This document shows positions 31,517 to 47,100 of a stretch of 64,000 bases of DNA, one piece after another. The notes beneath the pieces are model-generated. The model saw only the letters and a list, made by a program, of their open reading frames with translations. It had not been told where the DNA came from and made no database searches. The position numbers were made by a program, and so were the translations under genes. The DNA is from Nitrososphaerota archaeon (GTDB taxonomy: Archaea; Thermoproteota; Nitrososphaeria_A; Caldarchaeales; Caldarchaeaceae), in NCBI GenBank assembly GCA_041641305.1, contig JBEPYN010000001.1, positions 480,001 through 544,000 on the forward strand, written 5' to 3'. How positions within the stretch are numbered: the stretch's first letter is position 1; every line of letters starts with the position of its first letter.

Positions 31517-32127
31517 ACTGGTTCACCCCATCGGTTGAGCGCCGCAACCTCGTGTAACGGTTTTCTTCTTCCCTGTGTCTCTCCTCCTCTCATCCCAATT
31601 TCTACAAGAGCCATAGGCTCGAAGTCCTTCGGCAGCTCCAGCACACGTTTTACCGCATCGGGGGCGAAAAGTGGTGAGCAACGCCAACACGCGCCATAGC
31701 CCAGAGCATGAACAGCGAGGAGAATGTTCTGCACAGCCGCCGCCACGCTTTGAACAGCCATTATATACTCACATCTACTGCGTTTCGCATCCCAGTAAAC
31801 ATCCATCTCACGCATACACAGGCATGCGACGATCAAGTACGCGGCTTTCATGCTTCTGCCGTTGGATGATTCAATTATCTGCCGCGCTTTCTCTTGGTCG
31901 ATGCCGTCTGCCAGGAGGTCGGTGAGCCACTCCTTACCCATCTCCTCGAGAAGCCGCCTCTTCACATCAGGGTCGGAGACCACGACAAACCGCCACGGCT
32001 GCGCGTTGTGTGCATTAGCGGCCCAAACACCCGCCTCCAAAGCCTTTAAAACAACCTCGAAAGGAATCTCACCAACACCAAGGTTCTTCGAGCTCCGCCT
32101 ACTCTTTATCATCGTGAGAAAATCCAT
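31510..32127 (-). CDS. Nitroreductase-family protein resembling the FbiB C-terminal domain
   Basis: SRRS, ANAHNAQPWRF, AVQSVAAAVQNILLA, GACW; start set at MDFLTMIKSRR; first gene of the cofD-cofC operon. Confidence 0.85.
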   Translation of the reverse strand: MDFLTMIKSRRSSKNLGVGEIPFEVVLKALEAGVWAANAHNAQPWRFVVVSDPDVKRRLLEEMGKEWLTDLLADGIDQEKARQIIESSNGRSMKAAYLIVACLCMREMDVYWDAKRSRCEYIMAVQSVAAAVQNILLAVHALGYGACWRCSPLFAPDAVKRVLELPKDFEPMALVEIGMRGGETQGRRKPLHEVAALNRWGEPVC

Positions 32128-32180
32128 CAAACAAGCAAACAGCAAAACCCTATTTATGTTAGCCGCTGAAATAAAACTGG

Positions 32181-33245
32181 ATGGTCGAGCTCTGGCTACG
32201 CTATGGGCGGACAATGGTCTTCACAGACCTCGAGGACAACTTCGAGGTCCTACAGTCAGCGAAACAATGGAACGAACCTGAGAAACTGTCGGAGAATATT
32301 GCGCCACTCATTTCTCCAGAAACACGAGCCATTATCATCGATTATGTGCATGGCTTGACAGGATTTGATAAAGTGGTTGAAACGGTTCTCGATGTGGTCA
32401 GAAAAGCCGGGGCTGACTTGGATAGTTTGGAAGTATTTGCCTCGGGGTGGAGGTATTGCGACGAAAACATTGAGAGAGTATTAGTGAACATAGTGAAAAC
32501 AATTGTTTCCGAACACGGTGTCGGGAAAATTTCGCCACTCACGTCCTATGATCCGGACAAGTATCCCGAAGCTGTCGTCATCTCTCCAGCCGTTTACTGG
32601 AATGGCGAGGCTTTAACTCATGGAGATTTTCTCGAAGCTGTTGGGCTTGACGGTTTCAGCTGCTTCGTTGCGCCGGTTGTGGGTAGAGGTGGGGTGGTGT
32701 CTGAGGTCTATTCAGGCGACGATGTTCTAGACTCTGTTGTCAGGGATGCGGCGATGAAGTTATCTGTGTACACACCTTCTAAAGAGCCGCAGGTTGTGGT
32801 AGTTGGAGGCCCCGGCCACCCAGTTGACTCGAGGTTTCAAACATGTGTAAATATTGCCAGCGCTGGACTGGAGCTCTCTGAGAACAAGGTCCTTGTTTTT
32901 GCGCTGGAATGCTCCGAGGGACTTGGAGGAAACGAGTTCATCAACACTCTTCTAAACAAGTCTCAGCCAAACAATCGTTGTTTGGCAAAGGACATCGAGT
33001 CGTGGCGTGTGGTTGCGGCCCGCCAAAAAATATGTCTCGTCACCGCTCTCCCTTCATCGCTTGTAAGCCATCTACTCGCCGCGAGACAGTTTGATACGCT
33101 GGACCAGGCCATGACCTATGCTAGGCGGCTCAAATCAAGGGAGGCCCATGTCCTTTTTGTGGAGAACGGTGTAGGGACGCGGATTTTAGAATATGCGGCT
33201 GAGAGGGACGAAGCTAAGGACAAACATGGCGGCAACGCCGAATAG
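32181..33245 (+). CDS. Divergent LarA (lactate racemase/DUF2088)-like protein
   Basis: N-terminal LRYG; C-terminal VVVGGPGHPVD...LVFALECSEGLGG resembles the LarA GGYPxD...ECxEGxG motif. Confidence 0.55.
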   Translation: MVELWLRYGRTMVFTDLEDNFEVLQSAKQWNEPEKLSENIAPLISPETRAIIIDYVHGLTGFDKVVETVLDVVRKAGADLDSLEVFASGWRYCDENIERVLVNIVKTIVSEHGVGKISPLTSYDPDKYPEAVVISPAVYWNGEALTHGDFLEAVGLDGFSCFVAPVVGRGGVVSEVYSGDDVLDSVVRDAAMKLSVYTPSKEPQVVVVGGPGHPVDSRFQTCVNIASAGLELSENKVLVFALECSEGLGGNEFINTLLNKSQPNNRCLAKDIESWRVVAARQKICLVTALPSSLVSHLLAARQFDTLDQAMTYARRLKSREAHVLFVENGVGTRILEYAAERDEAKDKHGGNAE

Positions 33246-34280
33246 CGATATTTTTCTCCAGAATGAGAGTGGGGAAACCTCATCCAGCGGTATGATGTCA
33301 ACGCTACGCCCCATCATCAGAATAAGCAGAAGAGCCATGAAATAATAGCCTGCGAAAACCAGAACAGCCAGCGCAACGTAAGATGCTATTAGGTGTTGTC
33401 TACGTGTGAGGAAGCTTCTAAATATTCTGCCGCCGTCGAGCTGCCAAATCGGCATAAGGTTCAAAGCAGTCACCACCATTCCGAGCCAAGCTGCAAATCC
33501 GACGGTCATGAAAAACGGGACATAGCCGGGTCTCTCATAAAACATCCCAATCAGGTAAAAGATCAGAGGTGGTTGCACGAAGGCGCCTTGACCAGCGATA
33601 GCTTCCAAAATTTGTTCATAACGGTTCTCAGGCACCCAGACGGCAGTCTCAAAAGCGAGGAAAGTAACCAAAACGGCCACAACAAAACCAGCAACAGGAC
33701 CACTAACACCCAAGTCAAACATATCGTCCCTGTTAGCCAGCGGCTCCTTCTGGAATATAACAGCCCCAAGAGTTGGTAAAATGCCGGGCAACCCCGGAAT
33801 AAAGTAGGGAAGGCTTGCGGCGACGCCGTCTATTTTGGCGGAAATCTTGTGACCCATTTCGTGGATAAAAATTATACCAAGCAACGCTAATGAAAAAAGC
33901 ACTCCGTTGGTGATGATGGAGTTTAGTCCAAACCCTTGGGAAATGATGCTGAAGATTGGGCTGCTTGACCTGAGGATGCCGTCCACGGTTACTGTTCCCA
34001 CGGTTGCGGCGGCGAGGACTAATGGTATCTTGACATCGTTTTTAGCCGGCCTGCTGTACGGAAAAACTCGCAACTTGATAACAGATTGTTCACGGCGTGC
34101 AGAGGCGAGAAAACCCATTTTCTTGAGCTCAGCCAAACAACTTTTGAACGCGGCCTTGATGTCGTTGTCGAGAACCTCAAACGTCAACACACCAGCCTCA
34201 AAATATGTGTTAGCCACGTTGAAGTGCCGCTCCACGGTCAGCTTCAACGAGTCGATGACGCCGTCGTAGACAAAACTCAT
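33186..34280 (-). CDS. Site-2 protease (peptidase M50)
   Basis: HEMGH, GVSGPVAG, LNLMPIWQLDGG. Confidence 0.92.
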   Translation of the reverse strand: MSFVYDGVIDSLKLTVERHFNVANTYFEAGVLTFEVLDNDIKAAFKSCLAELKKMGFLASARREQSVIKLRVFPYSRPAKNDVKIPLVLAAATVGTVTVDGILRSSSPIFSIISQGFGLNSIITNGVLFSLALLGIIFIHEMGHKISAKIDGVAASLPYFIPGLPGILPTLGAVIFQKEPLANRDDMFDLGVSGPVAGFVVAVLVTFLAFETAVWVPENRYEQILEAIAGQGAFVQPPLIFYLIGMFYERPGYVPFFMTVGFAAWLGMVVTALNLMPIWQLDGGRIFRSFLTRRQHLIASYVALAVLVFAGYYFMALLLILMMGRSVDIIPLDEVSPLSFWRKISLFGVAAMFVLSFVPLSRIF

Positions 34281-34550
34281 GAACAGATGACATGTAACAA
34301 TCCAATCTAAAAAGGTTACCGAGACATCGCTGATTGGTTAATGCGCTGACAAAGGGATAACATCCGCAACGAGGGATGCAAACTTGTCGGAGAATGTTAC
34401 CTAGCTGTATTGGCCGGGATATTGAGACTGGGTGGGCACCTCCATGCATTCAACCCTATTTAGGTCTAGAGACGTATCTCGTTGTATAAGCATATGTGCC
34501 TATTCTGCATGACACGAATCAGATTGCATAGCTCTCTATGATAAGAACCG

Positions 34551-34626
34551 TGGGGCCGGTGGGATTTGAACCCACGACCTCGCGGGCCCAAGCCGCGCAT
34601 CTTAGACCAAGCTGGACCACGGCCCC
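34551..34626 (-). tRNA. tRNA-Pro(TGG)
   Basis: Minus strand GGGGCCG...CGCGG-CTTGGGC-CCGCG...GGTTCAAATCC...CGGCCCCA. Confidence 0.97.
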
Positions 34627-34667
34627 TTGAGAAAAAGGCTCCATAACCCGAATAAATACCAGCCGTT

Positions 34668-35357
34668 TTAGGGCAGGAGTTCTATGCCGTGTAAGCCGAT
34701 GACGTATTCGCTCCATTCAGTTGGATGCCGCACTCCGCGTAGAAAACGTATTCGGAGAAAACGCCGCAGGTTGCCGCCCATCTCCTCCATCATCATCTCC
34801 ACGACGCCGTCCGAGAGGCTGTAGAGGAGATTGGTGAGTTTCTGCTCGAGAATGTCTGGAACAATAATTGCGACACAGGTGCCGCCGTTCCTTCTCACGT
34901 CTGATGCGACGGCCTGGTAGAACTTGAAGGCGTTCTCCGAAGGAATGTATGCGAGAAGCGTGCTCAGGTCATCGATGACGAGAAAATAGTTGGACGAGTA
35001 GTCGGCTGCTTCGAGGAAGGTCTGCCGTATCTCAAGCAGGCTCGCCTCGGGGCTTATGCTGTAACGTGCTGGATACGCGTTTTCTCCCCGGGTGTGACAG
35101 TCAACGATAACAAGTTTACCTGTCTCGAGGTGGTTGTCAAAATCGACGCCGATGGATTTGGCGAGTTCGATGAAGTTTTGGGGAGACATGGTTGTGAGGA
35201 CGTATACCGTTTTCCTATCCTTGGACAACGCGGTTTCAACGGCTTGTATCGATAGGAGGGTTTTTCCGACGCCGTTGGGGCCCGTGAAGATTATCGACCC
35301 TGTTTTGCCGAGAATTGTCTCAATTATCCACTCGACGCTTACCTGCATCTCCCCCAC
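34668..35357 (-). CDS. Single-domain KaiC/RAD55-like RecA-superfamily ATPase
   Basis: Walker A GPNGVGKT, Walker B LVIDD, SDGVVEM...RFLRIRFLRG. Confidence 0.85.
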   Translation of the reverse strand: MGEMQVSVEWIIETILGKTGSIIFTGPNGVGKTLLSIQAVETALSKDRKTVYVLTTMSPQNFIELAKSIGVDFDNHLETGKLVIVDCHTRGENAYPARYSISPEASLLEIRQTFLEAADYSSNYFLVIDDLSTLLAYIPSENAFKFYQAVASDVRRNGGTCVAIIVPDILEQKLTNLLYSLSDGVVEMMMEEMGGNLRRFLRIRFLRGVRHPTEWSEYVIGLHGIELLP

Positions 35358-35532
35358 CCCTCTTAACAGGCTCAGTCAGAGAAACTCTCCGCCAGTCGCG
35401 TAGAAGAGCCCAGAAAGCGGCCGTCAAGAAAATGAAGAAGACGAGGCCTGACACGATGTCTATGCCCTGCGGTATCCCCGTTAGACGGCCGCTTAGCTGC
35501 AGCAGGACTAACCCCCTCCCCGCAACCGACAC
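35320..35532 (-). CDS. Small membrane ORF, possibly the 3' remnant of a degraded membrane-protein gene
   Basis: Hydrophobic C-terminal helix overlapping the ATPase start; the frame stays open further upstream but has no start codon before a TGA. Confidence 0.3.
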   Translation of the reverse strand: MSVAGRGLVLLQLSGRLTGIPQGIDIVSGLVFFIFLTAAFWALLRDWRRVSLTEPVKRGGGDAGKRRVDN

Positions 35533-35854
35533 CGCCGCGGCGACTATTATAACTTGTGGCCTAATTTGCTCGACTCTATGCCCTATTCTCCCGCCGCTCG
35601 CTCTCCTCCAGTAGGACTTAGAGGGGTGAGAGTGAAGGTAGGTCGTAAGCCTTACTGTTCATATGCAACCAACATTGAGACCTGAGAAGCGCCGAGACAA
35701 AGCCGTAGAAAGGCCTCGAAAACCGGAAAAGTAAGAGAAGAAAAGGCATCTTTTAAGAGATTATCCTATCCTTACCAGCCTCTAATATACTCTCTTTATG
35801 CAACCAGTAAAGAAGTGAACATCAGGAAGAGTCATAAGGCATAAATAATTAAGG

Positions 35855-35991
35855 AAAAAATGAGGGGATGGTTGGCTGGCAGGCACCCAACCAACAACAT
35901 CTAGGAAACCCAAAAAGAAGCCGGCCGTTTAAGAGTTTAGCGAGGCGTAGACATCGCCCGTTTAATAGTCGGGCGTACCGGCTTCTGGGTT
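35855..35991 (-). ncRNA. Putative structured RNA 3' of the IS110/Tas-like gene
   Basis: Stems AAACCCA/TGGGTTT (35906-12/35986-92) and GAAGCCGG/CCGGCTTC (35917-24/35978-85), internal duplicated motif, a further hairpin (35869-93) and a T-run. Confidence 0.5.
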
Positions 35992-36837
35992 TTATCCTTG
36001 TTGTTGGGCCGGTACGCCTGCCAGCCTCTCCTGGGTTTCCCGTCTGATTGTCAGCCAGATTGTTTTTAGTAGTTCTTGTTGTTGTTTTCCTCGAGGTATC
36101 CCATGTAGGACCATTGTTAGCCTTGTCAGGGCCTGTCTGACACCATGGTTGTATCTCTTCTCCCGTCTATTGCCATGGAGTTTTAGATAGTTTCTCACCT
36201 TTGTGAAGGATTTGCTGAAGTCTATAAATGTCAAGAGCTCCGCCAAAGCCTCCCTAGACGTCAAATGATTGTCACCAGATAATCCAAGTTCTTCTACAAG
36301 CCTGTTGTAGACTGGGTATCTTATGCCAGCCTCCTCCGAAATAATTTCTGCCAGCTCTCTCATTCTCTCCTCGTTGAACCTTATCACCGTCCTCAGTATT
36401 CTTCTCTCCATCTCCGAGACTGCCTTAGACATGTTGAGTAGTCTTTGATGAGTTTTTAGGAGGCTTCGGAAAGCGGCTATCATCCTCCTCATTATGAGGA
36501 AGTCTTCATCAACTCTGCGGAACCACTTCTCTTCAATAGCCATCAGAGCCTTGATGTCAGCTCTCGCGGACTTGGATTTTATGTTCAGCCTCTGCCTCAC
36601 CACCTCAATCATCGATAATCTCCGAAGATAGTAGACCTCTGCGCCTCTCCTCAGAAGCATTATGAAACCATCTGTGTGGATTATTGGGATGGTGTCGACG
36701 AATACCTTGTCTCCCGGGCCTGCCGGTATATCCACCGGAGAATCAACATGCCTAAAGTTTTCACCGTCCGTAGTGTAGGTTACCCGGTATCCGGTGTCAT
36801 CCCTCTTCCTGTGAACATCGCAGTAGAACCTCATCTA
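35898..36837 (-). mobile_element. Candidate minimal IS110-family-like element
   Basis: Transposase-like ORF plus structured 3' non-coding end, bounded by a TAGATG (minus) direct repeat at 36832-36837 and 35898-35903; no terminal inverted repeats. Confidence 0.5.
35992..36834 (-). CDS. Short IS110-like / Tas-like protein (RuvC-like DEDD domain, coiled coil, truncated Tnp/Nop-like domain)
   Basis: YCDVH, VFVDT, KSARADIKAL (cf. KTDxxDA); LAELLTFIDF..F..VRNYLKL...YNHGVRQAL (cf. LLAEIGD.RF...L.SYAGL...GN..LR.AL). Confidence 0.65.
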   Translation of the reverse strand: MRFYCDVHRKRDDTGYRVTYTTDGENFRHVDSPVDIPAGPGDKVFVDTIPIIHTDGFIMLLRRGAEVYYLRRLSMIEVVRQRLNIKSKSARADIKALMAIEEKWFRRVDEDFLIMRRMIAAFRSLLKTHQRLLNMSKAVSEMERRILRTVIRFNEERMRELAEIISEEAGIRYPVYNRLVEELGLSGDNHLTSREALAELLTFIDFSKSFTKVRNYLKLHGNRREKRYNHGVRQALTRLTMVLHGIPRGKQQQELLKTIWLTIRRETQERLAGVPAQQQG

Positions 36838-37209
36838 CACCACCTTCCTTAGGACTATGGCGTATTCGTGGTAGAGGTCGTGGTTATGACCCTTGACTGT
36901 ATGGTATTTGGCGAAGTGGCCGTTTGAAAGCCTGAACTTCAAGGCCTCGACATGCCGGAGACCAACGTATTCTGCGAGCTCCTTGGTAAGCTCTACGAGG
37001 TTCTTACCTCGTCTGCATCTGTCGCAATTCCTCATCCTGCTTCCGCAGTGGTCGCAGTATGTAGAGAGCCATCTCTGCAGCAAGTATTCTCCGTAGAATC
37101 CGCCTAGGATGCCCACAACCATCAGAAGAACACCCTCGAACAAACGCCCCTCATTGACCAACTGAATCCCGTAGACAAGAGCTATCGCAACCAGCGCAGG
37201 CATCAGCAT
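36835..37209 (-). CDS. Small two-TM protein with CxxC...CxxC zinc-ribbon and His-rich tail
   Basis: C-terminal part of track ORF 36835..37656: MLMPALVAIALVYG...CDHCGSRMRNCDRC...HNHDLYHE; the N-terminal extension lies in the structured non-coding region. Confidence 0.6.
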   Translation of the reverse strand: MLMPALVAIALVYGIQLVNEGRLFEGVLLMVVGILGGFYGEYLLQRWLSTYCDHCGSRMRNCDRCRRGKNLVELTKELAEYVGLRHVEALKFRLSNGHFAKYHTVKGHNHDLYHEYAIVLRKVV

Positions 37210-37249
37210 ACTGCTGGACACCCTCTGCACCCCCACACCATTCCTCCGC

Positions 37250-38820
37250 GGCCGATGGGCAGTGTTTCCACGGATGGGTCGGACCCGCCCATCCGCAGAG
37301 TCCCTGGCCATCCAGACGACCTTACCCCCGGGAACCAGGGGTTTTGGAGGGCTTGGAGACACATATTCCCTCCCCATGAATGGGGGAGGCGGCCTATGAC
37401 AGCCGAGAAAATCTCCAAACCCTCTCAAAGCCGTCTGGAGAATGGTGTGGAGAACGTTAACAGAACATCGTAACCATCTGTCCCCGCCCACGGATTTGGA
37501 GCCGCTCCCACCAAGCGCCTCCATGACGCCATGATAGGGAGAACCCGTGGAGGAGACACCATGCCTCCCCCATGGAAAAACAGGCTCCAAGAATTCCCAG
37601 GCGGAGTATCTGAACAAACGTCTGACTATCTTCTGCCGGTCGCCTGTCCTGTCCACGGTGTCTAGGGGGCTGTGTAGTCATGCGTAGCACGGCCTACACA
37701 CCCCGCCATGCCAACCATGCGTAGCACGAGAAGGCATGCTTTGTCGAGACACCTGGACAGGCTTCAGCCGCATCGGCTCCGCCCCGGCTCCGTCATGCGT
37801 AGCACGGCCGAAGCCTTTCCCATCCCATGCATCCCGGAGAAGCCTGTCATGCGTAGCACGGCCAGGCAACTCCACAGAGACACCCGTCATGCATGGCACG
37901 GCCGGGTATCTGGGGCGGCAGATGCATGGGCTGGAGCGGAGCCGGAAGCCAGCCAACCACCCCCGCCACCCCACAAACAATTGAATGGGGTGGACGCCAT
38001 CTCTCAGGCGTATATGGGAAAAAACAAGGAGTGTTTGGATGGCTGGAGTTGTTCAGCTATGTTTGAATTAAAATTCTCCCGTTATGGGCTCAGGATGGCG
38101 GGGAGAGTCAGCCAACCTTCCCCCTCTATCCGGGCTTGTAGCCGTTTCTTCGACCCCTTTCCCCTGCTGCGGCTTGGGGATTTCCTTTGCGAGGGGTCTT
38201 TGGGCGAACGGCGGTCAGCCCGGCGCGGACGCCCAGCAAAACATGGAGAAGAGAAGGGTTCTAACGGGTTAGAATCATGTTATTGCCCCAGCCTATTCCA
38301 CCCCCTTGGATGAACCGTCCAGCACCCGTCTTTCCCCGGAGCGGTCTAGTGCCCAGGGCTTGGATAAATCATCCATGCACCGGAGCGTCCCCGAGCCTCA
38401 CCGGACCATGCCCTTAGCGGGCAAGCCATCAACCCGGAGAACCCTAGACCATATCCGGAGAGGCGGCAGCTCATCCAAGGGAGCAGCCCATCATCCCGCG
38501 GAGACGCTCAGGCAAAGCCTATAAGGAGGACTCTACTCCTCCCTATGGGCATCCCTGCCACGCCTCTGTGGTTCGGGGGGAACTCTGGGCGGCTGGGGTG
38601 CCCTCTCCACTCCATGTCCGCAGCGCTCCTATGCTTGCCGGCTTCGACGACCTGCGTGAATGTCGGGGGACTTTGGGGACAGGTTTGCCGGCACCCATCC
38701 CCTCGCCGCAGCCTTTTCAGGCTGTGGACCGGTTCCGCATCCGGCTCCCCAGCTCAGCCCCGTCGCCGGGGCTTCATGGGAAGCTCACGCAAGCCAGCCA
38801 ACCCCTTGGAGAGGCTGGTC
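37250..38820 (-). ncRNA. Putative large (~1.6 kb) structured non-coding RNA locus
   Basis: GC-rich, no credible ORF, many nested 7-11 bp helices; BRE/TATA at 38846-38859 oriented into it. Strand is less certain for the right half. Confidence 0.55.
37671..37907. repeat. Five copies of hairpin motif GTCATGC-GTA-GCACGGCC with irregular spacing
   Basis: Exact 18-mer at 37677, 37792 and 37846; variants at 37716 (CATGCGTAGCACG) and 37886 (GTCATGCATGGCACGGCC). Confidence 0.9.
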
Positions 38821-38845
38821 TAACATCATTTCCCCAACCTCCCCC

Positions 38846-38859
38846 ATATAAAGTTTTGG
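38846..38859 (-). promoter_or_regulatory. Candidate leftward archaeal promoter (BRE CCAAAAC plus TATA TTTATAT)
   Basis: Resembles the BRE/TATA consensus; predicted start near 38820 coincides with the edge of the structured region. Confidence 0.55.
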
Positions 38860-39044
38860 TGGCAAACCTGAACGAGATTTGAACGAGAGTTGAACGAGAA
38901 ATGTACGACGGCGGCTAATATTGTTCAACGCCTCTCTGGTGAGCCAAAAATCCGGCGAATCAGGCTGACCATAATTGTTCAATCTCGTACAAATCTCGTT
39001 CAGTTCTCGTTCATTTCTCGTTCAAGTTTGCCACCAAAAGTTTA
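38849..39044. repeat. 60-bp imperfect inverted repeat containing TGAACGAGA repeats at an 11-bp period
   Basis: Arms 38849-38908 and 38985-39044; TGAACGAGA at 38869, 38880 and 38891 plus TGTACGA at 38902, mirrored on the right arm. Confidence 0.92.
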
Positions 39045-39047
39045 TCT
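39034..39047 (+). promoter_or_regulatory. Candidate rightward archaeal promoter (BRE CCAAAAG plus TTTATCT)
   Basis: Mirror copy of the leftward promoter in the other inverted-repeat arm. Confidence 0.4.
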
Positions 39048-39448
39048 AGGGTTCCTTACGTCTCAGACTAACCTATTTAAAGGTATATGGTTGAAAACCG
39101 CGGACAAGCAACCCCAATTCCAGGAAATTTCGGGGTTCTGGAGAGACCTAAAATTTCCTGTAAACGCTGTTTTTCAGCCAAGTGTCTATCGGTTGACAAA
39201 TTATAGTCAACCCCCTTCCGTAGAAGGGTGAAATTTCGGGGAATTAGGCGCGGTAATACGGTGACCAAAATTACTTGGCTATGGTAATGCCTCTTGTCTC
39301 TATGGCTTGTAGAGGCGATTTTTCAGCTTTCTGGGACGGGTTTTTGAGATTTTTTGTGGGCTGCTCGTCGTTTGTCGATTCTGAGGAGACGATATGTGGA
39401 GGCTCGTGGTTTATCCGTCTATATGCTTGCCGCCGTATCTGCTTCTAT

Positions 39449-40009
39449 GTGAAGAATAGGAAACAGGGTAGAGGGCGGTACATTGTTCTCGTCCCAGCGG
39501 TGTTGCTGATGGTTTTCACAATATACCTTATGCTGACCCCTCCTCAGACAACGGACTCAGTTAATGTGACGAACAGAGCCACAGCACCAGACTTCACGCT
39601 CGAAACAATAGACGGCAAAGGGTTGACAGGCGGAACACTATCCTTCTCAAGCCTGCGGGGAAAACCCATACTCATAGACTTCGTATTCGAATGGTGTCCA
39701 CACTGCAACAACATGGCGCCTATCATGGAGAGGCTCCACAAAGAGTATGGAGACAGGGTAACATTTGTCACGGTCATGGGCTCTCAGAACACCAATCCCG
39801 AGAAGTCTGCAGAGTTCCTAGCTAGACATGGCGTAAAATGGGCGGCGGTATACGACAAAACGATGAAGACATTCATTGACTACGGTGTGAGGGGGACGCC
39901 TACATACGTATTCATACGACCAGACGGGACAATACTACGCAAATTACCGGGAGAACCGCCATACGAGACACTCAAGCTCTCCGTAGAGGAGCTATTAACA
40001 GGGCTCTAA
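39449..40009 (+). CDS. TlpA/ResA-like membrane-anchored thiol-disulfide oxidoreductase
   Basis: N-terminal TM, APDFTL, EWCPHC, YGVRGTPTY; start reassigned to GTG 39449. Confidence 0.88.
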   Translation: MKNRKQGRGRYIVLVPAVLLMVFTIYLMLTPPQTTDSVNVTNRATAPDFTLETIDGKGLTGGTLSFSSLRGKPILIDFVFEWCPHCNNMAPIMERLHKEYGDRVTFVTVMGSQNTNPEKSAEFLARHGVKWAAVYDKTMKTFIDYGVRGTPTYVFIRPDGTILRKLPGEPPYETLKLSVEELLTGL

Positions 40010-40104
40010 ACGCCCTCTGAGTTAGCAGACAAGTTGAGAAAGAAATGGCTTCTGAGGTGGAGAAGAGGAAGACAATACGAGTCAGGCATTAAAACCATAT
40101 AAAC

Positions 40105-40830
40105 TTGGACAATAGCTCTTCGTCATTGGCGATGCCGAGGAAAACAAATCGCTCATATATACTGCATCGAGGTATTGGGAAAGTTGAGAAAAAAGCTACT
40201 TATGAGGAGCTAAACCTGAAACTGCTTGAACTCTTATCCGACTGCTGGGACAGAGTCATATCGCTCGATTTTGAGACATACGTTGTCGAAAACAGATTCT
40301 TGAACGATGAGAAAATACTGTCAGTTAGTTTCGCTAGGAGGGTTTCGGGGAAAACAATGCAGGCTGAAGGTATCGAGGTTAAGTCTAATGTTTTAAATAA
40401 AGAAGACAAAGACTCTGAAAAACAAATGCTTGATTGGTTGGATGAGGAGCTGGGGAAGATTAATCCTCTCGGAGTCGTAGGATATATGCTCAGAGCGTAC
40501 GATATTCCGCTTTTAATAATGAAAAAAGAGCGCAACAAGGTGGAAGGCTCACCGTACTGGAAAATAATAGACCTAACAGAGAACGCAGTACATGTGGACC
40601 TCTACCACCTGCTCAGGGACAGAGGTTACAATAATCTGTACGACGCCATATCATCACTATCCCAAAATCTTCCTCTAAAGAAAGTAGAAGATTACTTATC
40701 TCAAAATAGAGAAATGAAGGGAAAAGCTGTCAAAGAGTTATGGGAAAAAGGGGCACTCAAAGAATACAACGAAGGACATGCATATAACATGTTGCTGATT
40801 GCGGAATGGCTCACATTCGGAGGAGAGTAA
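40105..40830 (+). CDS. DnaQ/RNase H-like (DEDD) 3'-5' exonuclease-family protein
   Basis: SLDFET (Exo I), GYMLRAYDIP (Exo II), HVDLY, YNEGH (Exo III position); true start probably downstream of 40105. Confidence 0.65.
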   Translation: MDNSSSSLAMPRKTNRSYILHRGIGKVEKKATYEELNLKLLELLSDCWDRVISLDFETYVVENRFLNDEKILSVSFARRVSGKTMQAEGIEVKSNVLNKEDKDSEKQMLDWLDEELGKINPLGVVGYMLRAYDIPLLIMKKERNKVEGSPYWKIIDLTENAVHVDLYHLLRDRGYNNLYDAISSLSQNLPLKKVEDYLSQNREMKGKAVKELWEKGALKEYNEGHAYNMLLIAEWLTFGGE

Positions 40831-41233
40831 TGACAACCGTATACTATTCCGATTGTCCATCCGAGAGGCTCGCTGTACTCCTTCACAATCTCGTCATATG
40901 TTGTGAAAACCCTTCTCTTCACCAACTTTGACCTGCTCTTCACCAACCCATCACATCATGTAATAATCCTCCCATATAACGCTAGGATGCCATCATATAG
41001 AAGTGCTTCCTTGACCATGTTTTGGCAGACTCAGCAGCCAAATATAGCCGTGTCTACCGCAGTCTCTTTCTCCAGGGTAGGTTAACGAGTCGGCTTCAGA
41101 TACACCAACACCGCCATATACTATCTATCAGCGTTTTCGATAACGCTTCTGCTCGCCAACATGGGTATGAGCTATGGGTTCTTCGGATTCTTCAAACTAT
41201 GAGGATGTAATCGCTCATCGGGCGAAACAATGA

Positions 41234-41587
41234 CTAGAGCCAGACTCCTTTCGCCCCGACGCATCTGAGAACCATCAAGTTTTTCTCGTTGTCGGGAATA
41301 TTTTTGCCAGAAACAGACGCTCTCTGCGGGGCCGAAAGCACGTAGAACAGCTCTTCACCAACCTCTGCTATGTCTCCTACAGTGAACTTCAGCAGCCACT
41401 TCCTCAGAAGCTCGAGCGTCGGAGCATGTCTGACGTATACGATGACTTTATCATATTTCTTAGCGTCGGCCGCGAGCTCATCGAGAGAAGAGCTGCTAAC
41501 CTGTATACAGAAGCTTGGAAAAAGGCTAGAGAAAGCTGACGGCGGCAAAGACGGCAACACCTTAAGGACATTCTTTCTCGCACTCAT
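41234..41587 (-). CDS. DUF1874 (STIV B116/AcrIII-1/Crn2)-like protein
   Basis: 117 aa; IVYVRHAPTLELL resembles family motif SAIGHxATAELL; later LSAPQR resembles LKQR. Confidence 0.5.
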   Translation of the reverse strand: MSARKNVLKVLPSLPPSAFSSLFPSFCIQVSSSSLDELAADAKKYDKVIVYVRHAPTLELLRKWLLKFTVGDIAEVGEELFYVLSAPQRASVSGKNIPDNEKNLMVLRCVGAKGVWL

Positions 41588-41631
41588 GAAGTCGATTTCT
41601 CAGCCGAAAAATAAAAGGCATCATCTGCATA

Positions 41632-42354
41632 ATGGAACCGTCAGAAATTGTTGAATGCAACCTTGCCCGGGTGGTCTACGTTTGGCCGGAAACGGTTAAT
41701 ACTGGGAGAAGTTTTATGATGGCGATGAATCCCGGCAAGGTATTGCCGGCTATCCTGCTTGTTGTAGGCCTGTTGGCCGGGTTCTTCAGCGGCTCGGTTC
41801 TAAGCCCCGTAACAGTCACCAGCACGTTGGTCAAAACCTCCATTTCGACAAGCGTAAGCACGGAGCAGGTGACAAAAACTGTGTCCACCACCGTGACTTC
41901 GTACGAGACCCTTAGATGGTCTACTACGCTTTTCGTAACGGCCCGCACCACGTTAACTTCGGTCTCAACCAGTATCTCCACCCGGACAACCACGGTTACA
42001 TCGACCACTACCGCAACCACTACAATGGTTTCAACCGTTTACCCCGCCGTCTCGGGAACCGTGCTGGTGAGAGACAGAGGCAGCGGCTCTAAGGAGACGC
42101 CGCCGTTCACGCTCGAGGCGACCTCAGACCTAAGGATAAAAATCACGATAAGGGCTACGGCCGACCTCCGATACGTCGGCTTATATTGGTACCTGTATGA
42201 AGTGGGCGATGACCTATCCTATAAGAGGGGCTCTATTCTAGAGGAGCAGGGGTCCTTCGAGTTCTACGCCGCAGCCATTCCGCCCGGTAACTGGTACATA
42301 CAGGTGAACGCCGCCAACTGCAACTGGGAAATCACTGTCGAAAAAGTTACTTGA
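41632..42354 (+). CDS. Membrane-anchored surface protein with Thr/Ser-rich stalk and C-terminal beta-sandwich
   Basis: TM segment, about 80-aa T/S/V-rich linker, PPGNWYIQV...WEITVE; start probably near MAMNPGK (~41716). Confidence 0.75.
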   Translation: MEPSEIVECNLARVVYVWPETVNTGRSFMMAMNPGKVLPAILLVVGLLAGFFSGSVLSPVTVTSTLVKTSISTSVSTEQVTKTVSTTVTSYETLRWSTTLFVTARTTLTSVSTSISTRTTTVTSTTTATTTMVSTVYPAVSGTVLVRDRGSGSKETPPFTLEATSDLRIKITIRATADLRYVGLYWYLYEVGDDLSYKRGSILEEQGSFEFYAAAIPPGNWYIQVNAANCNWEITVEKVT

Positions 42355-43957
42355 CAGATTCCGAGAACTCTCTCCATCTTTCCAGCATAATTTTCCGCCT
42401 CTCCTTCAGGAATTCTTCATAGTTCTCGCGTTTCCATAGCTCAGGGTCGAGCGGAATGCAGTGCTCCCGTAACAGAGCAGGGTCCTGGTCGTAGAGTTTG
42501 CTGAGATACTCCGACGGCTCTTTATCCCTCAGAGTCTTGTTACTCAGGCTTGAGAGAAATGTGATGTTTGCCGCATCATTCTCCAGCTCGGGGTCTAGCA
42601 ACTTCCTTTTGAAAAGGTATTGTGGGAAGATGTGGTGCTCGTTTATCTCACTATCTCTTAGCTCCCATATCTTATCCGGGTCACCCCCATCCCTGGGCGT
42701 CCAGTCACGGGCATTATAAGATTTGAGGAGAATAGATAGCAGGGTTCGGTGCTCGTCGGAGAATTCCCGCTCCAGATAGTCGGGCAAGAGCTCCTTCACC
42801 TTCAGATTTTCTACTAGTCGTCCAACATCCCAACTATTCTTCACCGATTCCAAGTCTTCTAAGAGGTCGCTCTCCAGCCGTCCAGTATATCTGCCATTGA
42901 ACGATGCCAGTACAAGCCACTTAACCAGCTCATGTTTAAACTTCTTGTCAACCAGCTTGCCCTGTGACAGATAGTTGTTATGCATGATTATCGCGGGCAT
43001 GACGGGGAGGTAATGCGATACCAAGAACTTCGGCCTGGCTCCGTATTCCTGGAATATGTCGAGAACACTCTGGATAGCCTTGAACGTATTGTTTAAGTAT
43101 TTGAGCAAAGTCTCGGAATTGTTCCTCATCAGCTCATTCAGAGCCGGCTTAAATTTTACCTGACCAGTTGCAATGGCTAAGTATGCCCGTATAAGAGGCG
43201 GGGCGTCGACATCATATCCCCTGGTTTGCAAGTCGCTCAGCAATGTTTCAAACTGGTCCCTGAACCTCTTTCCCTGTTCATGTATGATTTTACCGGACAG
43301 GAGCGCTAATACGAGGTCGTGTAGCTTCACCTTGGTTCCCTGGCTGTTCAAGGCCACGAACATCCGCGAGATATTCTCGAAGGCCTCGAGATGGTTATCC
43401 CTGCTCCACTTTATCGTAACCTCCATGAAGGTCACCTTGTAATCGTTGAAACGCTGCCAAAGCCTCGTCAGGCTATCGTAGATTTTCGGTTGTCTCACAG
43501 AATGCTTCTGAACCAATTCAGAATATTCCCTCGCCTGCAACACCTCTGACACTTTGTACAAGTTACCGCCTGGATTAGTTCTGCCTCGGCCAAGAATGAA
43601 TTTCTCGTTCAATGCATCGAATAGAAGGTTAATCCTTTTTGTTTCCTGGTTTATGGTTATTTCGCCATTATTTATCAGGAGTAGAGATGTCAGCCTCTGT
43701 CTGCCATCAATCACCATGTAGCGTCCGTTCTTTAAATTCATGTTATCGGCGATTGGCCTGAAAATGTTTTCGAGCTCCTCACGCACATCCGTAGGTATCT
43801 CGGCCACGCATATCGACCCTATTGGAAAACCGTTGTAAATAGACTCCGCGAGCTCCAGCACCTGCCTGTTACGCCATACAAAGGGTCTCTGAATATCAGG
43901 GACTATGAACTCACCCTGCTCAAGCTTAGACATCAAATCCCTAAGGAGCATATCCAT
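42347..43957 (-). CDS. GmrSD-like DUF262 plus DUF1524(HNH) modification-dependent restriction nuclease
   Basis: PDIQRPFVW, IDGRQRLTSL, FVALNSQG; C-terminal EHHIFP...NITFLS...N. Confidence 0.85.
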   Translation of the reverse strand: MDMLLRDLMSKLEQGEFIVPDIQRPFVWRNRQVLELAESIYNGFPIGSICVAEIPTDVREELENIFRPIADNMNLKNGRYMVIDGRQRLTSLLLINNGEITINQETKRINLLFDALNEKFILGRGRTNPGGNLYKVSEVLQAREYSELVQKHSVRQPKIYDSLTRLWQRFNDYKVTFMEVTIKWSRDNHLEAFENISRMFVALNSQGTKVKLHDLVLALLSGKIIHEQGKRFRDQFETLLSDLQTRGYDVDAPPLIRAYLAIATGQVKFKPALNELMRNNSETLLKYLNNTFKAIQSVLDIFQEYGARPKFLVSHYLPVMPAIIMHNNYLSQGKLVDKKFKHELVKWLVLASFNGRYTGRLESDLLEDLESVKNSWDVGRLVENLKVKELLPDYLEREFSDEHRTLLSILLKSYNARDWTPRDGGDPDKIWELRDSEINEHHIFPQYLFKRKLLDPELENDAANITFLSSLSNKTLRDKEPSEYLSKLYDQDPALLREHCIPLDPELWKRENYEEFLKERRKIMLERWREFSESVK

Positions 43958-44162
43958 GTCGTGGAAAAAATCAACGAGAAGTATAAATCTTAAGCGACAT
44001 TTTTCTCAACCCCTGCCTCCAATGCTTCGTTCTCCGCCACTAGACAGACTGAGCTGCCACCCATTATTCCACAGAATCATATGTTCCTACCGTTCCCATC
44101 AACCCTCTGAAACAGCCACGTTCTCTTAAAACTTAATTTTTAAGGTCAGGATTATAGTTTTC

Positions 44163-47100
44163 ATGAATTTTGGGCTTGATTTCTGGGTGGCTTGTTTATC
44201 TGAGAGAGGCTACCAACTTCATAGAGACAAGCTTGACATCGAAACTCTGTTCAAGACAAGGGTTCTTCTCAGCAGTGATGTGAAGGAGGCTTACCTACTC
44301 TATAGAGATGATTTTGTAGAGGTTGTGGCACTAATTTTTGACGAGCTTCCAGGCAGGGGTTATTGCGCTAGGATTGCTCGGCGATGGCGTGAAAAAAGAC
44401 TGCTTAGGCCTTTCCTGATATTTACCGACAATATTTCGTCTTATGCGGTGATTGTTAGAGGGCCGGGGCTGGGTGAGGAGGTTAGAGTGCTGCATTTAGA
44501 GGGGCAGTTGTATAGAACAGATTTGGAGGCTCTCGAGTCAGTAACCCATCCAGGAAAACCTGACGAGCTCAGGAAGAAATATGATACGGAGTTCTTCCCA
44601 TATGAAAAGGTTAGGGAAGAGTTTTTCCAGCAGTATAAGAAACTGTTTGAGAAAGTCATTGAAATCGTTAAACCCGTTTTCGGAGAGAACCGTGCTAAAG
44701 AATATGCTCAACGGTTTCTAGGCAGGCTGATGTTTCTCTACTTTCTCCAGAGAAAGGGGTGGTTAAACAACGATAGACAGTTCATAAACAAGTTGTCCGG
44801 TTTCAGAGAGCTTAACAGAGTCTTCTATGAGCTTTTAAACAAACCGGGGGGAGGAGACGGTGTACCATATCTAAACGGCAGCCTCTTTGACAGGGAGGAG
44901 TATCTAACAGCTGAGGCTGAGAGAAAGATAGAGAAGAAAATGGATAGTTTGTTTAATGAAGCTAGGGAGGTGTTTAACCGATACAACTTCACCGTCAACG
45001 AGACTTCGCCGCTGGAGGTTGAGGTAAGCGTAGACCCTCTGCTGCTGGGAACAGTTTTGGAGAACATGCTTCCCGAGCATGAGAGGGGAGCCAAAGGAAC
45101 CTTCTACACACCGGTCAACGAGATAAACTTCATCTGTAGAAAAGCTATACAGGCTTGGCTGGGCCTAGAGGACAGGGTAGACGAGACAGGGACCAGGCTA
45201 ATCGACGGGCTCGAGGAATACATCAACCAGTTAAAAGAAAGGCGGGACGAGGCGGAGATAAGAGAGTTCAGGAACAGGCTTCTATCTTTGAAAGTATGTG
45301 ATCCCGCCGTCGGCTCGGGAGGGTTCCTCGTGGTGATGATGCAGACGATACTGAGCCTTATTCAGGAGGTTGAGGAGGCTGTAGGCTGGCACGCCGACCC
45401 AGCTATCTACAAGTCGAGAATCCTACCCAACCTCTATGGATTCGACATAGAGCCCGAGGCCGTCGAGATAGCGAGACTCCGTCTATGGCTCTCCCTCGTA
45501 GTTGACCAGAAGAAACCCGAGCCACTCCCCAACCTAGACCTAAACATCATGGTGACAAGCGACTCCCTCAGCCTCCCACAAGGTGGACAATCCCTTATCG
45601 ACCAATACTACACATCTAGCAGGATTAGAGAACTGGTCGACAACCTGAACGAGCTTAAAAAGAAATACACAACCGAACACAATCCAACAGCGAAGAAAGA
45701 GCTTCAGAACCGCATCGAGAAAATCTGGCGAAAACTTGTGGAGGAATTTGGGAGCGAAGAATTAAAGACTCTACCGCTTGAGCTAATCATGATGAGCCGA
45801 CCAGACATAATAGTGATGAATCCACCCTACGTAAGACAGGAGAAAATACCTCCTAGAACAAAGGAGCACTATGTAAAGAGCTATAGACTGGACAGGACAT
45901 CGGACATCTACGCATTCTTCATGAAAAGAGCCCTTAACTTACTTAATGAGAAGGGTGCAGCATCCATAATATCATCCGACAAGTGGCTCGAGGTCGGGTA
46001 CGGCTTAAAGCTGCAGGAGACGCTGAAACCCCATCTCCTGGCTGTCTACGGCCAGCGTGAAAGAAGCTTCGGAGCAGACATAAACACAGTAATAACAGTG
46101 CTCAGAAAAGAAAAACTACCAGACAACCACAGCATACAGTTCATCTACCTAAGCAAATACGGCGAAAAAACAGTCATCAACCACAAATCCATACCAAGAG
46201 GAGAGCTCAAGCCAGGGAAATGGTACTACCTAAGAGCACCGAAAATATTCGAAGAAACCCTACTACCAAAACTAACCCACAAGCTGAAAGACTTCGCCGA
46301 AATAAAATTCGGCATTAAGACCGGTGCTAATGAGTTCTTCTACATGAAGGACGTCAGCCACCTATACGAGGCAGACTACCTAGCAAACCCAAGAAGATTC
46401 CACGAATGGGGAGTAAATGCACGAAACCAAAAAGAACTCGAAGAACAAGAACTTATATACATAGAGAATGAAGCAGGAAAAAGATTCGTGATAAATAAAA
46501 AAGATGTAAGACCTATTCTCCGGTCGCCAGAAGAAATTCACGAATATATGTTTTCACAATTCAAGAAACTCTGTCTGTATACAAGCAATCCAGGTTCATT
46601 AACCACAAAATACATTAGAAAATATGAAAAAGAGGGAATACACCGCCGATCCACTCTCAGAAATAGGTCACCTTGGTGGAAACTTCCAGAGTTAGAAACC
46701 ACTAGTATCGTTTTGATAAAGTCATTCCACAATGTAATTTATGAACCGATATGTCCTAAACCCGTTCTCGTGGACCAGAGAGCTTATGTATTTAAGCCCC
46801 GCAACCTCAAATCATTAGAAGATGTGTGGAAGTACTTCAACAGCACGATTTTTTACTTAACTATCGAACTTTATTGTGATAGGTTGGGCGGAGGAGCGAC
46901 AGATATCAGGGTCGAAGATTACAAAGAAATGCCAGTCCCCGACTTGTCCCGATTACATATAGCGTTTGACGCTAAAAGGTTGTGGAATAGAAAACCATTA
47001 CCTTACAATGAGGAGGTGCAGCAGGCTGATAGACGAGAATTAGACAAAGCTGTGCTTAGAGTCCTAGGCTTCCCCGAATCCGAACTAGATAGGCTTGTCG

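What the first reader, a model, noticed from the sequence alone, without database searches (positions are those of the whole stretch)
37671..37907. Five hairpins with a constant cap on different but self-complementary basal stems
Seen (minus strand): core GC-CGTGC-TAC-GCATG-A, closed in each copy by a different helix: TGTGTAG/CTACACA, CATGCC/GGCATG, GGCTTCG/CGGAGCC (with G.U), GCCTG/CAGGC and ACCCG/CGGGT. This is internal compensatory variation, which argues for selection on structure rather than simple duplication. Copies 1-2 and 4-5 sit as pairs inside larger helices, and spacing (37, 78, 54, 40 bp) is irregular. Inference: a multivalent protein-binding scaffold or sponge (CsrB-like logic), packaging signals, or attC/REP-like ssDNA recombination sites.
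Basis: seen in the sequence. Interest (0 to 1): 0.82.

Follow-up and report, generated by a model that had tools for sequence, protein, structure and literature searches.

The report
Hairpin-arm array in TasR-linked archaeal RNA
The five hairpins are real and are the arms of a previously undescribed, roughly 520-base folded RNA that hot-spring archaea (Caldarchaeales) carry next to an IS110/TasR-like RNA-guided gene; the arm tips stay identical within each copy and are replaced together between copies, which points to a repeated docking site whose partner is still unknown.

Summary
Observation confirmed. Five minus-strand hairpins (37671-37911) share the apex CGUGC-YAY-GCAUG on five different self-complementary basal stems. 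The core occurs nowhere else in the genome except in one paralogous array.

- **Setting:** they sit in a conserved ~520-nt non-coding element (38012 to 37490, minus strand) with no Rfam match. It has 3 copies in this genome and occurs in 14 of 100 relatives, all within the order. It usually lies upstream of a 280-aa gene with the IS110/TasR fold.
- **Generality:** across 22 arrays (111 hairpins), each array has its own constant cap on variable, paired stems.
- **Strand:** G·U pairs outnumber A·C 98 to 24, so the fold belongs to the sense-strand RNA (or ssDNA), not to duplex DNA.
- **Concerted change:** positionally equivalent arms in different elements keep their stems but swap all caps together (cap identity 0.96 within arrays, 0.58 between).
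- **Not TIGR units:** only 16-19 constant bases lie between the stems, so there are no spacers. attC, REP and CRISPR are also excluded.

Best reading (about 0.45): a multivalent docking platform on the left-end RNA of a TasR-like mobile module. Transcription and the binding partner are untested. The scan noted the paralogous array and the neighbouring effector and guide before.

The parts
37671..37700 (-). Hairpin 1: stem UGUGUAG/CUACACA, junction GC/A, apex CGUGC-UAC-GCAUG
37707..37738 (-). Hairpin 2: stem CAUGCC/GGCAUG, deviant junction UUCU/GUU, same apex
37786..37815 (-). Hairpin 3: stem GGCUUCG/CGGAGCC (one U.G pair), junction GC/A, same apex
37842..37867 (-). Hairpin 4: stem GCCUG/CAGGC, junction GC/A, same apex
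37878..37911 (-). Hairpin 5: 9-bp stem AGAUACCCG/CGGGUGUCU (one G.U pair), junction GC/A, apex variant CGUGC-CAU-GCAUG
37490..38012 (-). Whole conserved structured non-coding element that holds the array. Order along the minus strand: 5' domain, hairpin array, 3' multi-helix domain. It is 90% identical to the paralog at G000:C1:441188-441709, more conserved than the adjacent protein gene (80% at DNA level)
   Evidence: no Rfam family at E<=1
37945..38012 (-). 5' domain: hairpin P1 (CGCC/GGCG), hairpin P2 (CCACCCC/GGGGUGG), then the single-stranded motif CGGGGGUGGUUGGCUGG. This is the signature of the RNA family (model R1)
   Evidence: 96.6% of cells paired and 13 cells with changes on both sides, versus 3.2 in shuffles
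37948..37964 (-). 17-nt motif complementary (16 of 17) to the tail at 35864-35880. Either the left inverted repeat of the unit or an anti-tail that pairs with the guide RNA's 3' tail
36835..37209 (-). Small ORF with TM helices and a CxxC...CxxC motif. Its last 66 residues are the C-terminus of a DNA methyltransferase that is full length in related loci (L088, L123, L052)
35992..36834 (-). 280-aa protein with the IS110/TasR fold: RuvC-like domain, coiled coil, helical Nop-like domain. It has no beta/Ser loop. D6, D47, K88 and D93 are invariant
35917..35985 (-). Guide-type hairpin downstream of the gene. The basal stem is conserved, the two internal-loop strands vary between paralogs
   Evidence: lead from earlier scan notes
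35864..35880 (-). Tail GCCAGCCAACCAUCCCC followed by a U-run; complementary to 37948-37964

Best explanation
The five hairpins are the arms of a multi-branched domain in a ~520-nt structured non-coding RNA (38012 to 37490, minus strand). This RNA is the left-end module of a Caldarchaeales mobile or defence-island unit. The right end of that unit encodes an IS110/TasR-fold protein, its dual-strand guide hairpin, and a tail complementary to the RNA's 5' motif.

In each arm the lower stem only has to pair. The small junction (5'-G|GM|C ... G|A|C-3' in most arrays) and the apical mini-hairpin are identical in all arms of one element and are replaced together between elements. That is the signature of a repeated recognition site.

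I therefore propose that each arm tip docks one copy of a sequence-specific partner. The partner is most likely an element-encoded protein: the TasR-like oligomer or a cofactor. The RNA would then act as a multivalent platform that assembles, concentrates or titrates the ribonucleoprotein. It may be tethered to the guide RNA through the 17-nt pairing.

- **Shown:** the hairpins exist, the structure lies on the sense strand, the RNA family exists and has a limited distribution, it is linked to the TasR-like gene, and the caps evolve in concert.
- **Inferred:** transcription, the identity of the partner, and the assembly or titration role.
For: 1. The fold is real and strand-specific.
   - z = -5.8 on the minus strand.
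   - In 111 hairpins of 22 arrays the best helices hold 98 G.U pairs, against 24 A.C when the antisense rule is applied.
   - A cap's own flanks pair over 5.8 bp on average, against 3.5 bp for swapped flanks. Helices of 5 bp or more occur in 70 of 111 hairpins against 19% of controls.
2. Four orthologous arrays share a 102-pair multi-branch fold with 29 compensatory pairs.
3. Caps evolve in concert. Cap identity is 0.96 within arrays and 0.58 between. Basal flanks are at random level within an array (0.26) but 0.65 identical to the positional counterpart in other arrays.
4. At least 12 different caps exist, each a small stable hairpin. Many share the GGA/AC junction.
5. The RNA family (model R1) has 3 copies here and occurs in 14 of 100 relatives, all in the same order, at 1-9 copies. 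About half of 30 loci have the TasR-like gene downstream on the same strand.
6. The protein model has pLDDT 93.5. It matches IS621/ISCro4 at TM 0.58-0.65 over full length and TasR at 0.63.
7. A 17-21-nt complementarity links the 5' motif and the tail after the guide hairpin, with matched differences between elements.
Against:
- No partner is identified.
- Arrays are dispensable. G003-type and other copies have 0-1 arms.
- Many TasR-like genes lack this RNA nearby: 2 of 4 in this genome, L088, and most copies in G009.
- The caps are simply very stable mini-hairpins (UUCG tetraloop, GC-rich triloops), which also fits a purely structural role.
- Cap homogeneity could come from short-patch gene conversion without any partner.
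- The arms lack the boxes that flank the spacers of the system's own guide hairpin, so the TasR-like guide-binding site is probably not what they bind.
Confidence: 0.45

Rival explanations
1. Purely architectural arms. The caps are thermostable nucleation hairpins that staple the long arms of a large RNA in a hyperthermophile, with no sequence-specific partner. Their identity within an array would come from origin by local duplication plus short-patch gene conversion.
For: - Caps are generic stable mini-hairpins: C(UUCG)G-like, GC-rich triloops and tetraloops.
- Arm number varies from 0 to 8.
- Mosaic arrays carry contiguous blocks of two cap variants (L183: four GCCCGUG then three GCCCUUG; G009a: two and two). 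These look like recombination products.
- Very short homology suffices for recombination in Sulfolobus (my own knowledge, not checked here).
Against: - The same compensatory base-pair change (G-C to A-U) plus loop changes occur in all six caps of an array, while the stems around them stay orthologous. That asks a lot of conversion tracts of about 16-19 nt bounded by unrelated sequence.
- The conserved GGA/AC junction across different caps suggests a read-out site.
Confidence: 0.22
2. A degenerate or spacer-less relative of stem-loop TIGR arrays. The units descend from dual-spacer guide units of a TasR system and are still bound or processed like tigRNAs, but they carry no guides.
For: - A TasR-fold protein is encoded nearby.
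- The units are tandem, with variable palindromic stems around a constant core. In stem-loop TIGR arrays the stems also diverge within an array.
- The same locus has a genuine dual-strand guide hairpin downstream of the gene.
Against: - Only 16-19 constant nucleotides lie between the stems.
- A TIGR stem-loop unit needs two intervals of box C (CNA) + about 9 nt + box D (YG) plus a loop, so at least about 30 nt with variable spacers.
- The arms are integrated in one conserved multi-branch fold with long-range helices, not strung as independent units with linkers.
- The boxes seen in the locus's own guide hairpin are absent from the arms.
Confidence: 0.15
3. DNA-level sites. The constant 13-19-bp cores are sub-terminal binding sites for a transposition protein at the left end of the element (as in Tn7 or Mu ends), or the hairpins form in single-stranded DNA as recombination sites (attC- or REP-like).
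For: - The cores are direct repeats with irregular spacing, just inside a 17-bp inverted repeat of the unit.
- The family behaves as mobile DNA: multi-copy, patchy, and one MAG has at least 30 gene copies, many at contig ends.
- G.T pairs would also be tolerated in ssDNA.
Against: - Duplex binding sites do not explain flank complementarity, compensatory changes or the 98:24 excess of G.U over A.C.
- There are no cassettes between units, no dispersal of the core in the genome, and no tyrosine recombinase or HUH protein in the unit.
- No matching repeats were seen at the right end.
Confidence: 0.08

Closest known systems
Stem-loop TIGR arrays of TIGR-Tas systems (Faure et al. 2025, PMC12045711; Xu et al. 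2026, bioRxiv 10.64898/2026.09.09.750476)
   Same: - Tandem hairpin units next to a gene for a RuvC + coiled-coil + Nop-fold protein.
- Stems are palindromic and differ from unit to unit, while a small core is constant.
   Different: - No spacers: 16-19 constant nt between the stems instead of two box C-spacer-box D intervals.
- Units are arms of one large conserved fold with a 5' and a 3' domain.
- Caps differ between elements and change in concert.
- The host is a free-living archaeon (Caldarchaeales), not a phage or CPR bacterium.
IS110/IS1111 bridge RNA or seekRNA elements (IS621, ISCro4; PMC11208160; PDB 8WT6, 9T56)
   Same: - A structured non-coding RNA is encoded in the left part of the unit, upstream of and on the same strand as a protein of the same fold.
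- The family is multi-copy and patchy, with sub-terminal inverted repeats.
   Different: - The protein lacks the Ser loop.
- The RNA is about three times longer.
- The hairpin arms have no target or donor guide loops.
- The guide-type hairpin lies downstream of the gene instead.
CsrB/RsmZ-type multivalent protein-sponge RNAs
   Same: The logic only: many hairpins presenting the same short motif on one RNA.
   Different: - No GGA-loop motif of the CsrA type.
- Bacterial system.
- Here the motif is an entire apical mini-hairpin plus a junction, and it is element-specific.
Integron attC sites and REP/BIME elements
   Same: Imperfect palindromes with conserved structure, variable stem sequence and asymmetric extra-helical bases.
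   Different: - No cassettes, no IntI or RAYT gene.
- Not dispersed: two arrays in 1.66 Mb.
- Units are 26-34 nt, spaced 37-78 nt, and embedded in a conserved RNA fold.

Membership tests
Stem-loop TIGR array | Adjacent Tas protein with a Nop-type RNA-binding domain | tested here: met
   The AF2 model (pLDDT 93.5) matches TasR 9mty at TM 0.63 and IS621/ISCro4 at 0.58-0.65. The gene lies about 840 nt downstream of the array on the same strand.
Stem-loop TIGR array | Each unit carries two spacers of 8-12 nt, each flanked by box C (CCA/CGA/CUA/CAA) and box D (UG/CG) | tested here: not met
   Only 16 nt (GC + 13-nt apex + A; 19-20 in hairpin 2) lie between the basal stems, and they are the same in all units.
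Stem-loop TIGR array | Variable palindromic stems flanking each unit | tested here: met
   Five different stems here; 111 hairpins in 22 arrays.
Stem-loop TIGR array | Array processed into unit-length guide RNAs | not testable with these tools
IS110 bridge RNA | Two internal loops whose strands are complementary to the target and donor flanks | tested here: not met
   The arms have a 2x1 junction only. The one larger internal loop in the 3' domain turned out to be a mismatched helix that varies by compensation (and reading of the strands).
IS110 bridge RNA | Partner recombinase with a DEDD RuvC domain and the catalytic Ser of the Tnp domain | tested here: not met
   The C-terminal half is all-helical with no beta hairpin. 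There is no conserved Ser in the C-terminal domain. D6, D47 and D93 are invariant. Pfam PF01548 gives only weak hits in 5 of 44 members.
Rfam families (all 4227) | Covariance-model match | tested here: not met
   Only a tRNA at 34551-34626 was found in 30000-45000 at E<=1.
REP/BIME | Tens to hundreds of copies dispersed in intergenic regions of the genome | tested here: not met
   The core with up to 1 mismatch gives 9 sites in 1.66 Mb. Eight of them lie in two paralogous arrays.
Integron attC | Sites separated by gene cassettes, next to an intI gene | tested here: not met
   Spacing is 37-78 nt. No integrase appears among the neighbouring ORFs.
CRISPR array | Regular repeat-spacer period with repeats of 23 nt or more | tested here: not met
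   The constant part is 13-16 nt, spacing is irregular (37, 78, 54, 40), and the 'spacers' pair across the repeat.

The most novel reading that the evidence does not exclude
Guide-less hairpin arms are a third kind of RNA component in the Nop-domain RNA-guided superfamily (IS110, TIGR-Tas, box C/D).

- They would form a scaffold RNA that pairs with the guide RNA through a 17-nt anti-tail, much as a tracrRNA pairs with a crRNA.
- The scaffold would present 3-8 identical, element-specific docking hairpins.
- This would act as a specificity code that keeps coexisting elements from cross-talking, and it would build a higher-order complex for RNA-guided insertion of mobile islands in archaea.
Probability: 0.25. 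Interest if true: 0.85.

Novelty: new variant of a known kind. Interest (0 to 1): 0.66.

Why it matters
RNA partners of the IS110/TasR/Nop5 superfamily are under intense study as programmable genome-editing tools and as a window on the origin of box C/D snoRNPs.

- This locus shows an archaeal branch of that superfamily with a large extra RNA, beside a compact Ser-less effector and its guide.
- The repeated arm tips of that RNA evolve in concert. If the arms are docking sites, they would define an orthogonal RNA-protein recognition code, with at least 12 natural variants in hand.
- They could also explain how these small effectors assemble into larger complexes.
- Even under the structural reading, this is a new large structured RNA family from hyperthermophilic archaea. 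Its internal, natural compensatory series makes it a ready target for structure probing and cryo-EM.

Tried and rejected
- **Rfam:** scan of 30000-45000 at E<=1 found nothing but a tRNA.
- **Exact core in relatives:** the search in 40 relatives gave only single 1-mismatch hits, at the level of the reversed-pattern control. The cap sequence itself is not conserved.
- **Single-sequence AF2:** useless (pLDDT 45). It was repeated with a 44-sequence alignment.
- **K-turn/K-loop (L7Ae site):** the 3' strand has 1 nt where a K-turn needs a 3-nt bulge plus GA. Rejected by reading the sequence.
- **BHB splicing motif:** both unpaired parts lie on the same side of the apical helix. Rejected.
- **Guide loop in the 3' domain:** the 11 x 9-nt region between CUCCGCC/GGCGGGG and GGAGCC/GGCUCC looked like box C/D-flanked spacers. 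The two strands are largely complementary, and only 5 sequences share the pattern, so it is not supported.
- **Cap versus guide hairpin:** a shared 6-mer (CUACGC) in the window is absent from the other three elements compared (the script stopped after four), so it is taken as chance.
- **Guide-loop matches near the tRNA and the far island end:** only scattered 7-8-mers, inconclusive. I did not reproduce the earlier notes' insertion-site claim.
- **Genome-wide scan for the 5' motif with 2 mismatches:** too noisy to use.
- **First related-loci run:** failed because the alignment was too divergent. It was redone with closer sequences.
- **Literature:** searches found no description of this RNA.
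Full report
**1.

On the minus strand the 13-nt core CGTGCTACGCATG occurs four times exactly (37679, 37716, 37794, 37848) and once with two changes (37888, CGTGCCATGCATG). The spacing is 37, 78, 54 and 40 nt, as reported.

Each core is a 5-bp helix with one G.U pair and a 3-nt loop. Each is closed by a different helix of 5-9 bp. In four of the five hairpins the two helices are joined by a 2x1 junction (GC on the 5' side, A on the 3' side). Hairpin 2 has UUCU/GUU instead.

Folding 37640-37990 as minus-strand RNA gives all five hairpins. Hairpins 5+4 and 2+1 are nested in larger helices. The energy is -188.5 kcal/mol (z = -5.8, and no shuffle folds as well). The plus strand folds clearly worse (-154.1, z = -3.5).

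In the whole 1.66-Mb genome the core (up to 1 mismatch) occurs only here, in a paralogous array at G000:C1:441375-441557, and once in isolation. The reversed control pattern gives zero hits.

**2. What surrounds the hairpins**

The organism is a Candidatus Caldarchaeum relative (Aigarchaeota/Caldarchaeales), judged from the source names of the best protein hits.

The array lies in a GC-rich stretch (0.59 against about 0.51) without a credible ORF. Comparison with the paralog shows about 520 nt of near-identical sequence, from 38012 down to about 37490. This stretch is 90% identical, more conserved than the neighbouring protein gene at 80%. A third, diverged copy lies at G000:C2:451195-451760.

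Downstream on the same strand come four features.
- A small ORF with TM helices and a Zn-ribbon motif (36835-37209). Its last 66 residues are the C-terminus of a DNA methyltransferase that is full length in related loci.
- A 280-aa gene (35992-36834).
- A guide-type hairpin (35917-35985).
- A tail followed by a U-run.

**3. The protein**

Pfam finds nothing for the 280-aa protein. The family is small: 103 representatives at 50% clustering. It is multi-copy in Caldarchaeum and common in hot-spring metagenomes.

With a 44-sequence alignment AlphaFold gives pLDDT 93.5. Foldseek places it with the bridge-RNA recombinases ISCro4 and IS621 (TM 0.58-0.65, full length) and with TasR 9mty (0.63). The next unrelated hits have TM below 0.25.

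The C-terminal half is all-helical, with no beta hairpin and no conserved serine. D6, D47, K88 and D93 are invariant among close relatives. The protein is therefore TasR-like in architecture (RuvC-like domain, coiled coil, Nop-like domain) and not a serine-bearing IS110 recombinase.

**4. The hairpin array is a general feature of an RNA family**

Related loci came from three sources: DNA search of relatives, protein-anchored scans of genomes and metagenomes, and a covariance model of the 5' domain (R1).

The family signature is hairpin P1, hairpin P2 and the motif CGGGGGUGGUUGGCUGG. In 16 sequences 96.6% of cells are paired, and 13 cells changed on both sides against 3.2 in shuffles.

R1 finds 3 copies in this genome. 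It matches 14 of 100 related genomes, all within the order, at 1-9 copies, and none in other orders of the phylum. About half of 30 RNA loci have the TasR-like gene downstream on the same strand within 0.3-1.2 kb. Several of the remaining loci are cut by contig ends.

Between the 5' domain and a 3' multi-helix domain these RNAs carry 0-8 hairpins of the kind found here. Each element uses its own constant cap. Examples follow.
- CGUGC-UAC-GCAUG (this window and its paralog).
- CGUGC-UUAU-GCAUG.
- CUUGCCCGUG(A/U)GCGG (the third copy in this genome).
- GGUGC-CAU-GCGCC.
- GGA-CGGUUC-GCUC-GGACCG-AC.
- GGG-CAGUUC-ACAC-GGACUG-AC.
- GGA-CAGCC-ACUU-GGUUG-AC.
- CCGG-UUCG-GG.
- GGGG-UGG-CCCC.

Many of these share the junction 5'-G|GA|C...G|A|C-3'. 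The window has GGC...AC.

**5. Tests of structure**

The first test used 111 hairpins from 22 arrays.
- The two flanks of a cap form a contiguous helix of mean 5.8 bp (median 6). Seventy of 111 have 5 bp or more.
- The left flank of one cap paired with the right flank of another cap of the same array gives 3.5 bp, with 19% at 5 bp or more.
- The helices hold 98 G.U pairs. Allowing A.C instead (the antisense rule) shortens them to 4.4 bp and finds only 24.

The structure therefore belongs to the strand that also carries the gene. It is not a property of duplex DNA.

The second test aligned four orthologous six-arm arrays (L037, L175, L180, L177). They share a consensus fold of 102 pairs, including long-range helices that enclose pairs of arms. 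Twenty-nine pairs have compensatory changes.

The opposite is seen.

**6. Concerted evolution of the caps**

In the six-arm subfamily the arms sit at nearly the same positions in different elements, and their basal stems are recognisably orthologous. Flank identity to the positional counterpart is 0.65. Between different arms of one array it is 0.26.

The caps behave the other way: 0.96 identical within an array and 0.58 between arrays. The same compensatory G-C to A-U change, plus loop changes, appears in all six caps of an array.

Mosaic arrays exist, and the variants sit in contiguous blocks.
- L183 has four GCCCGUG caps followed by three GCCCUUG caps.

So some force keeps all arm tips of one element alike. 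It is either a sequence-specific partner or a homogenising recombination process.

**7. What the hairpins are not**

- **Stem-loop TIGR unit.** By the authors' own detection rule such a unit needs two intervals of box C + about 9 nt + box D plus a loop between stems of 5 bp or more. Here only 16-19 constant nucleotides separate the stems. There is no room for spacers and nothing varies there.
- **Decoy for the guide-binding site.** The locus's own guide hairpin and its paralogs have conserved boxes around variable 7-nt stretches. The arms lack those boxes.
- **K-turn, BHB, attC, REP and CRISPR** readings fail on defining features (see the membership table).
- **Guide loop in the 3' domain.** The candidate dissolved into a mismatched helix.

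**8. Wider architecture (partly followed)**

The 17 nt after P2 (37948-37964) are complementary (16 of 17) to the tail after the guide hairpin (35864-35880). The same relation holds in other elements over 17-21 nt, with matched differences.

Nearly all TasR-like genes carry the tail about 115-135 nt after the stop codon.

In this genome the orphan RNA at C2:451195 lies on the same strand as the gene copy at C2:461971-462816, which has no RNA of its own. They are about 10 kb apart. The RNA's 5' motif lies at 451245, and that gene copy's tail motif lies near 462941. This suggests units of variable cargo bounded by the two motifs.

Several RNA copies, including the window's, are preceded within 10-15 nt by another tail plus T-run.

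In the complete sister genome G009 the tRNA + KaiC-like + TasR-like + RNA block lies at a different chromosomal place. The chromosomal tRNA next to the site-2 protease stands alone there. That fits a mobile island that integrates at a tRNA gene.

Whether the 17-nt repeats act as DNA termini or as an RNA-RNA tether between the left-end RNA and the guide RNA cannot be decided here.

**9. Explanation and ranking**

| Reading | Confidence |
|---|---|
| Repeated docking sites on a left-end scaffold RNA of a TasR-like module | about 0.45 |
| Purely architectural arms, homogenised by short-patch conversion | 0.22 |
| Spacer-less TIGR derivative | 0.15 |
| DNA-level sites | 0.08 |

The broader statement is much firmer, at about 0.85. 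It says the hairpins are selected RNA (or ssDNA) structure inside a new non-coding RNA family linked to IS110/TasR-like genes.

**10. Novelty**

There is no Rfam family, and no description turned up in the TIGR-Tas, IS110-Nop5 or non-coding atlas papers that I read or searched.

I class the finding as a new variant of a known kind, namely the RNA components of the IS110/TasR superfamily. The unexplained and interesting property is the concerted evolution of the arm tips.

The scan had already noted the paralogous array and, in separate follow-ups, the effector and the guide hairpin of this locus. I used those notes as leads. I re-tested the inverted-repeat note and the paralog note myself. I did not test the insertion-site claim.

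Noticed in passing
window 37948-37964 and 35864-35880: A 17-nt motif after hairpin P2 is complementary (16 of 17) to the tail after the guide hairpin. The relation holds over 17-21 nt in other elements, with matched differences. It could be the inverted repeats of a mobile unit or an RNA-RNA tether between the scaffold RNA and the guide RNA.
   Followed up: partly
window 36835-37032; loci L088, L123, L052: The small TM/Zn-ribbon ORF ends with the C-terminal 66 residues of a DNA methyltransferase (SPPY motif in L088). That gene is full length directly upstream of the TasR-like gene in related loci. The RNA-bearing segment seems to have replaced most of the methyltransferase gene here.
   Followed up: partly
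window 38030-38806 (minus strand): Upstream of P1 lies another non-coding unit. It begins with a 5'-type motif (AGGGGTTGGCTGG at 38794-38806) and ends with a tail-like CCAGCCATCC plus a T-run about 10 nt before P1. The same tail plus T-run precedes P1 in L170, L037, L179 and L187. This may reflect tandem or nested units, or a right-end/left-end junction.
   Followed up: partly
G000:C2:451195-462941: An orphan scaffold RNA (with its own 7-arm array of a different cap) lies on the same strand as, and about 10 kb from, a TasR-like gene that has a guide and tail but no RNA of its own. Together they would bound an 11.7-kb unit with cargo genes.
   Followed up: no
G009:C1:16822-27818 versus G009:C1:1202108-1204538: In the complete sister genome the tRNA + KaiC-like + TasR-like + RNA block lies at a different chromosomal place from the site-2 protease/tRNA locus that flanks it in this window. 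A second tRNA copy is present. This fits an island that integrates at a tRNA gene.
   Followed up: partly
loci L057-L087 (MAG Caldarchaeales PSS.bin.6): One genome holds at least 30 copies of the TasR-like gene, about 75-90% identical to each other at DNA level. Many lie at contig ends, with conserved upstream blocks of variable length. This looks like an active proliferating element with a divergent, lower-GC upstream RNA region.
   Followed up: partly
L183 (G009:C1:18519-21584) and L172: Mosaic arrays. The first four caps are GCCCGUG and the last three GCCCUUG. In G009a two caps are ...UUAUGCAUG and two are ...UUAGCCAUG. The block-wise pattern suggests recombination between arrays.
   Followed up: no
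window 42347-47210: A GmrSD-type restriction gene (PF03235) and a 1015-aa methyltransferase/restriction-like ORF lie a few kb from the module, in a lower-GC stretch (about 39-52 kb). This fits a defence island.
   Followed up: no
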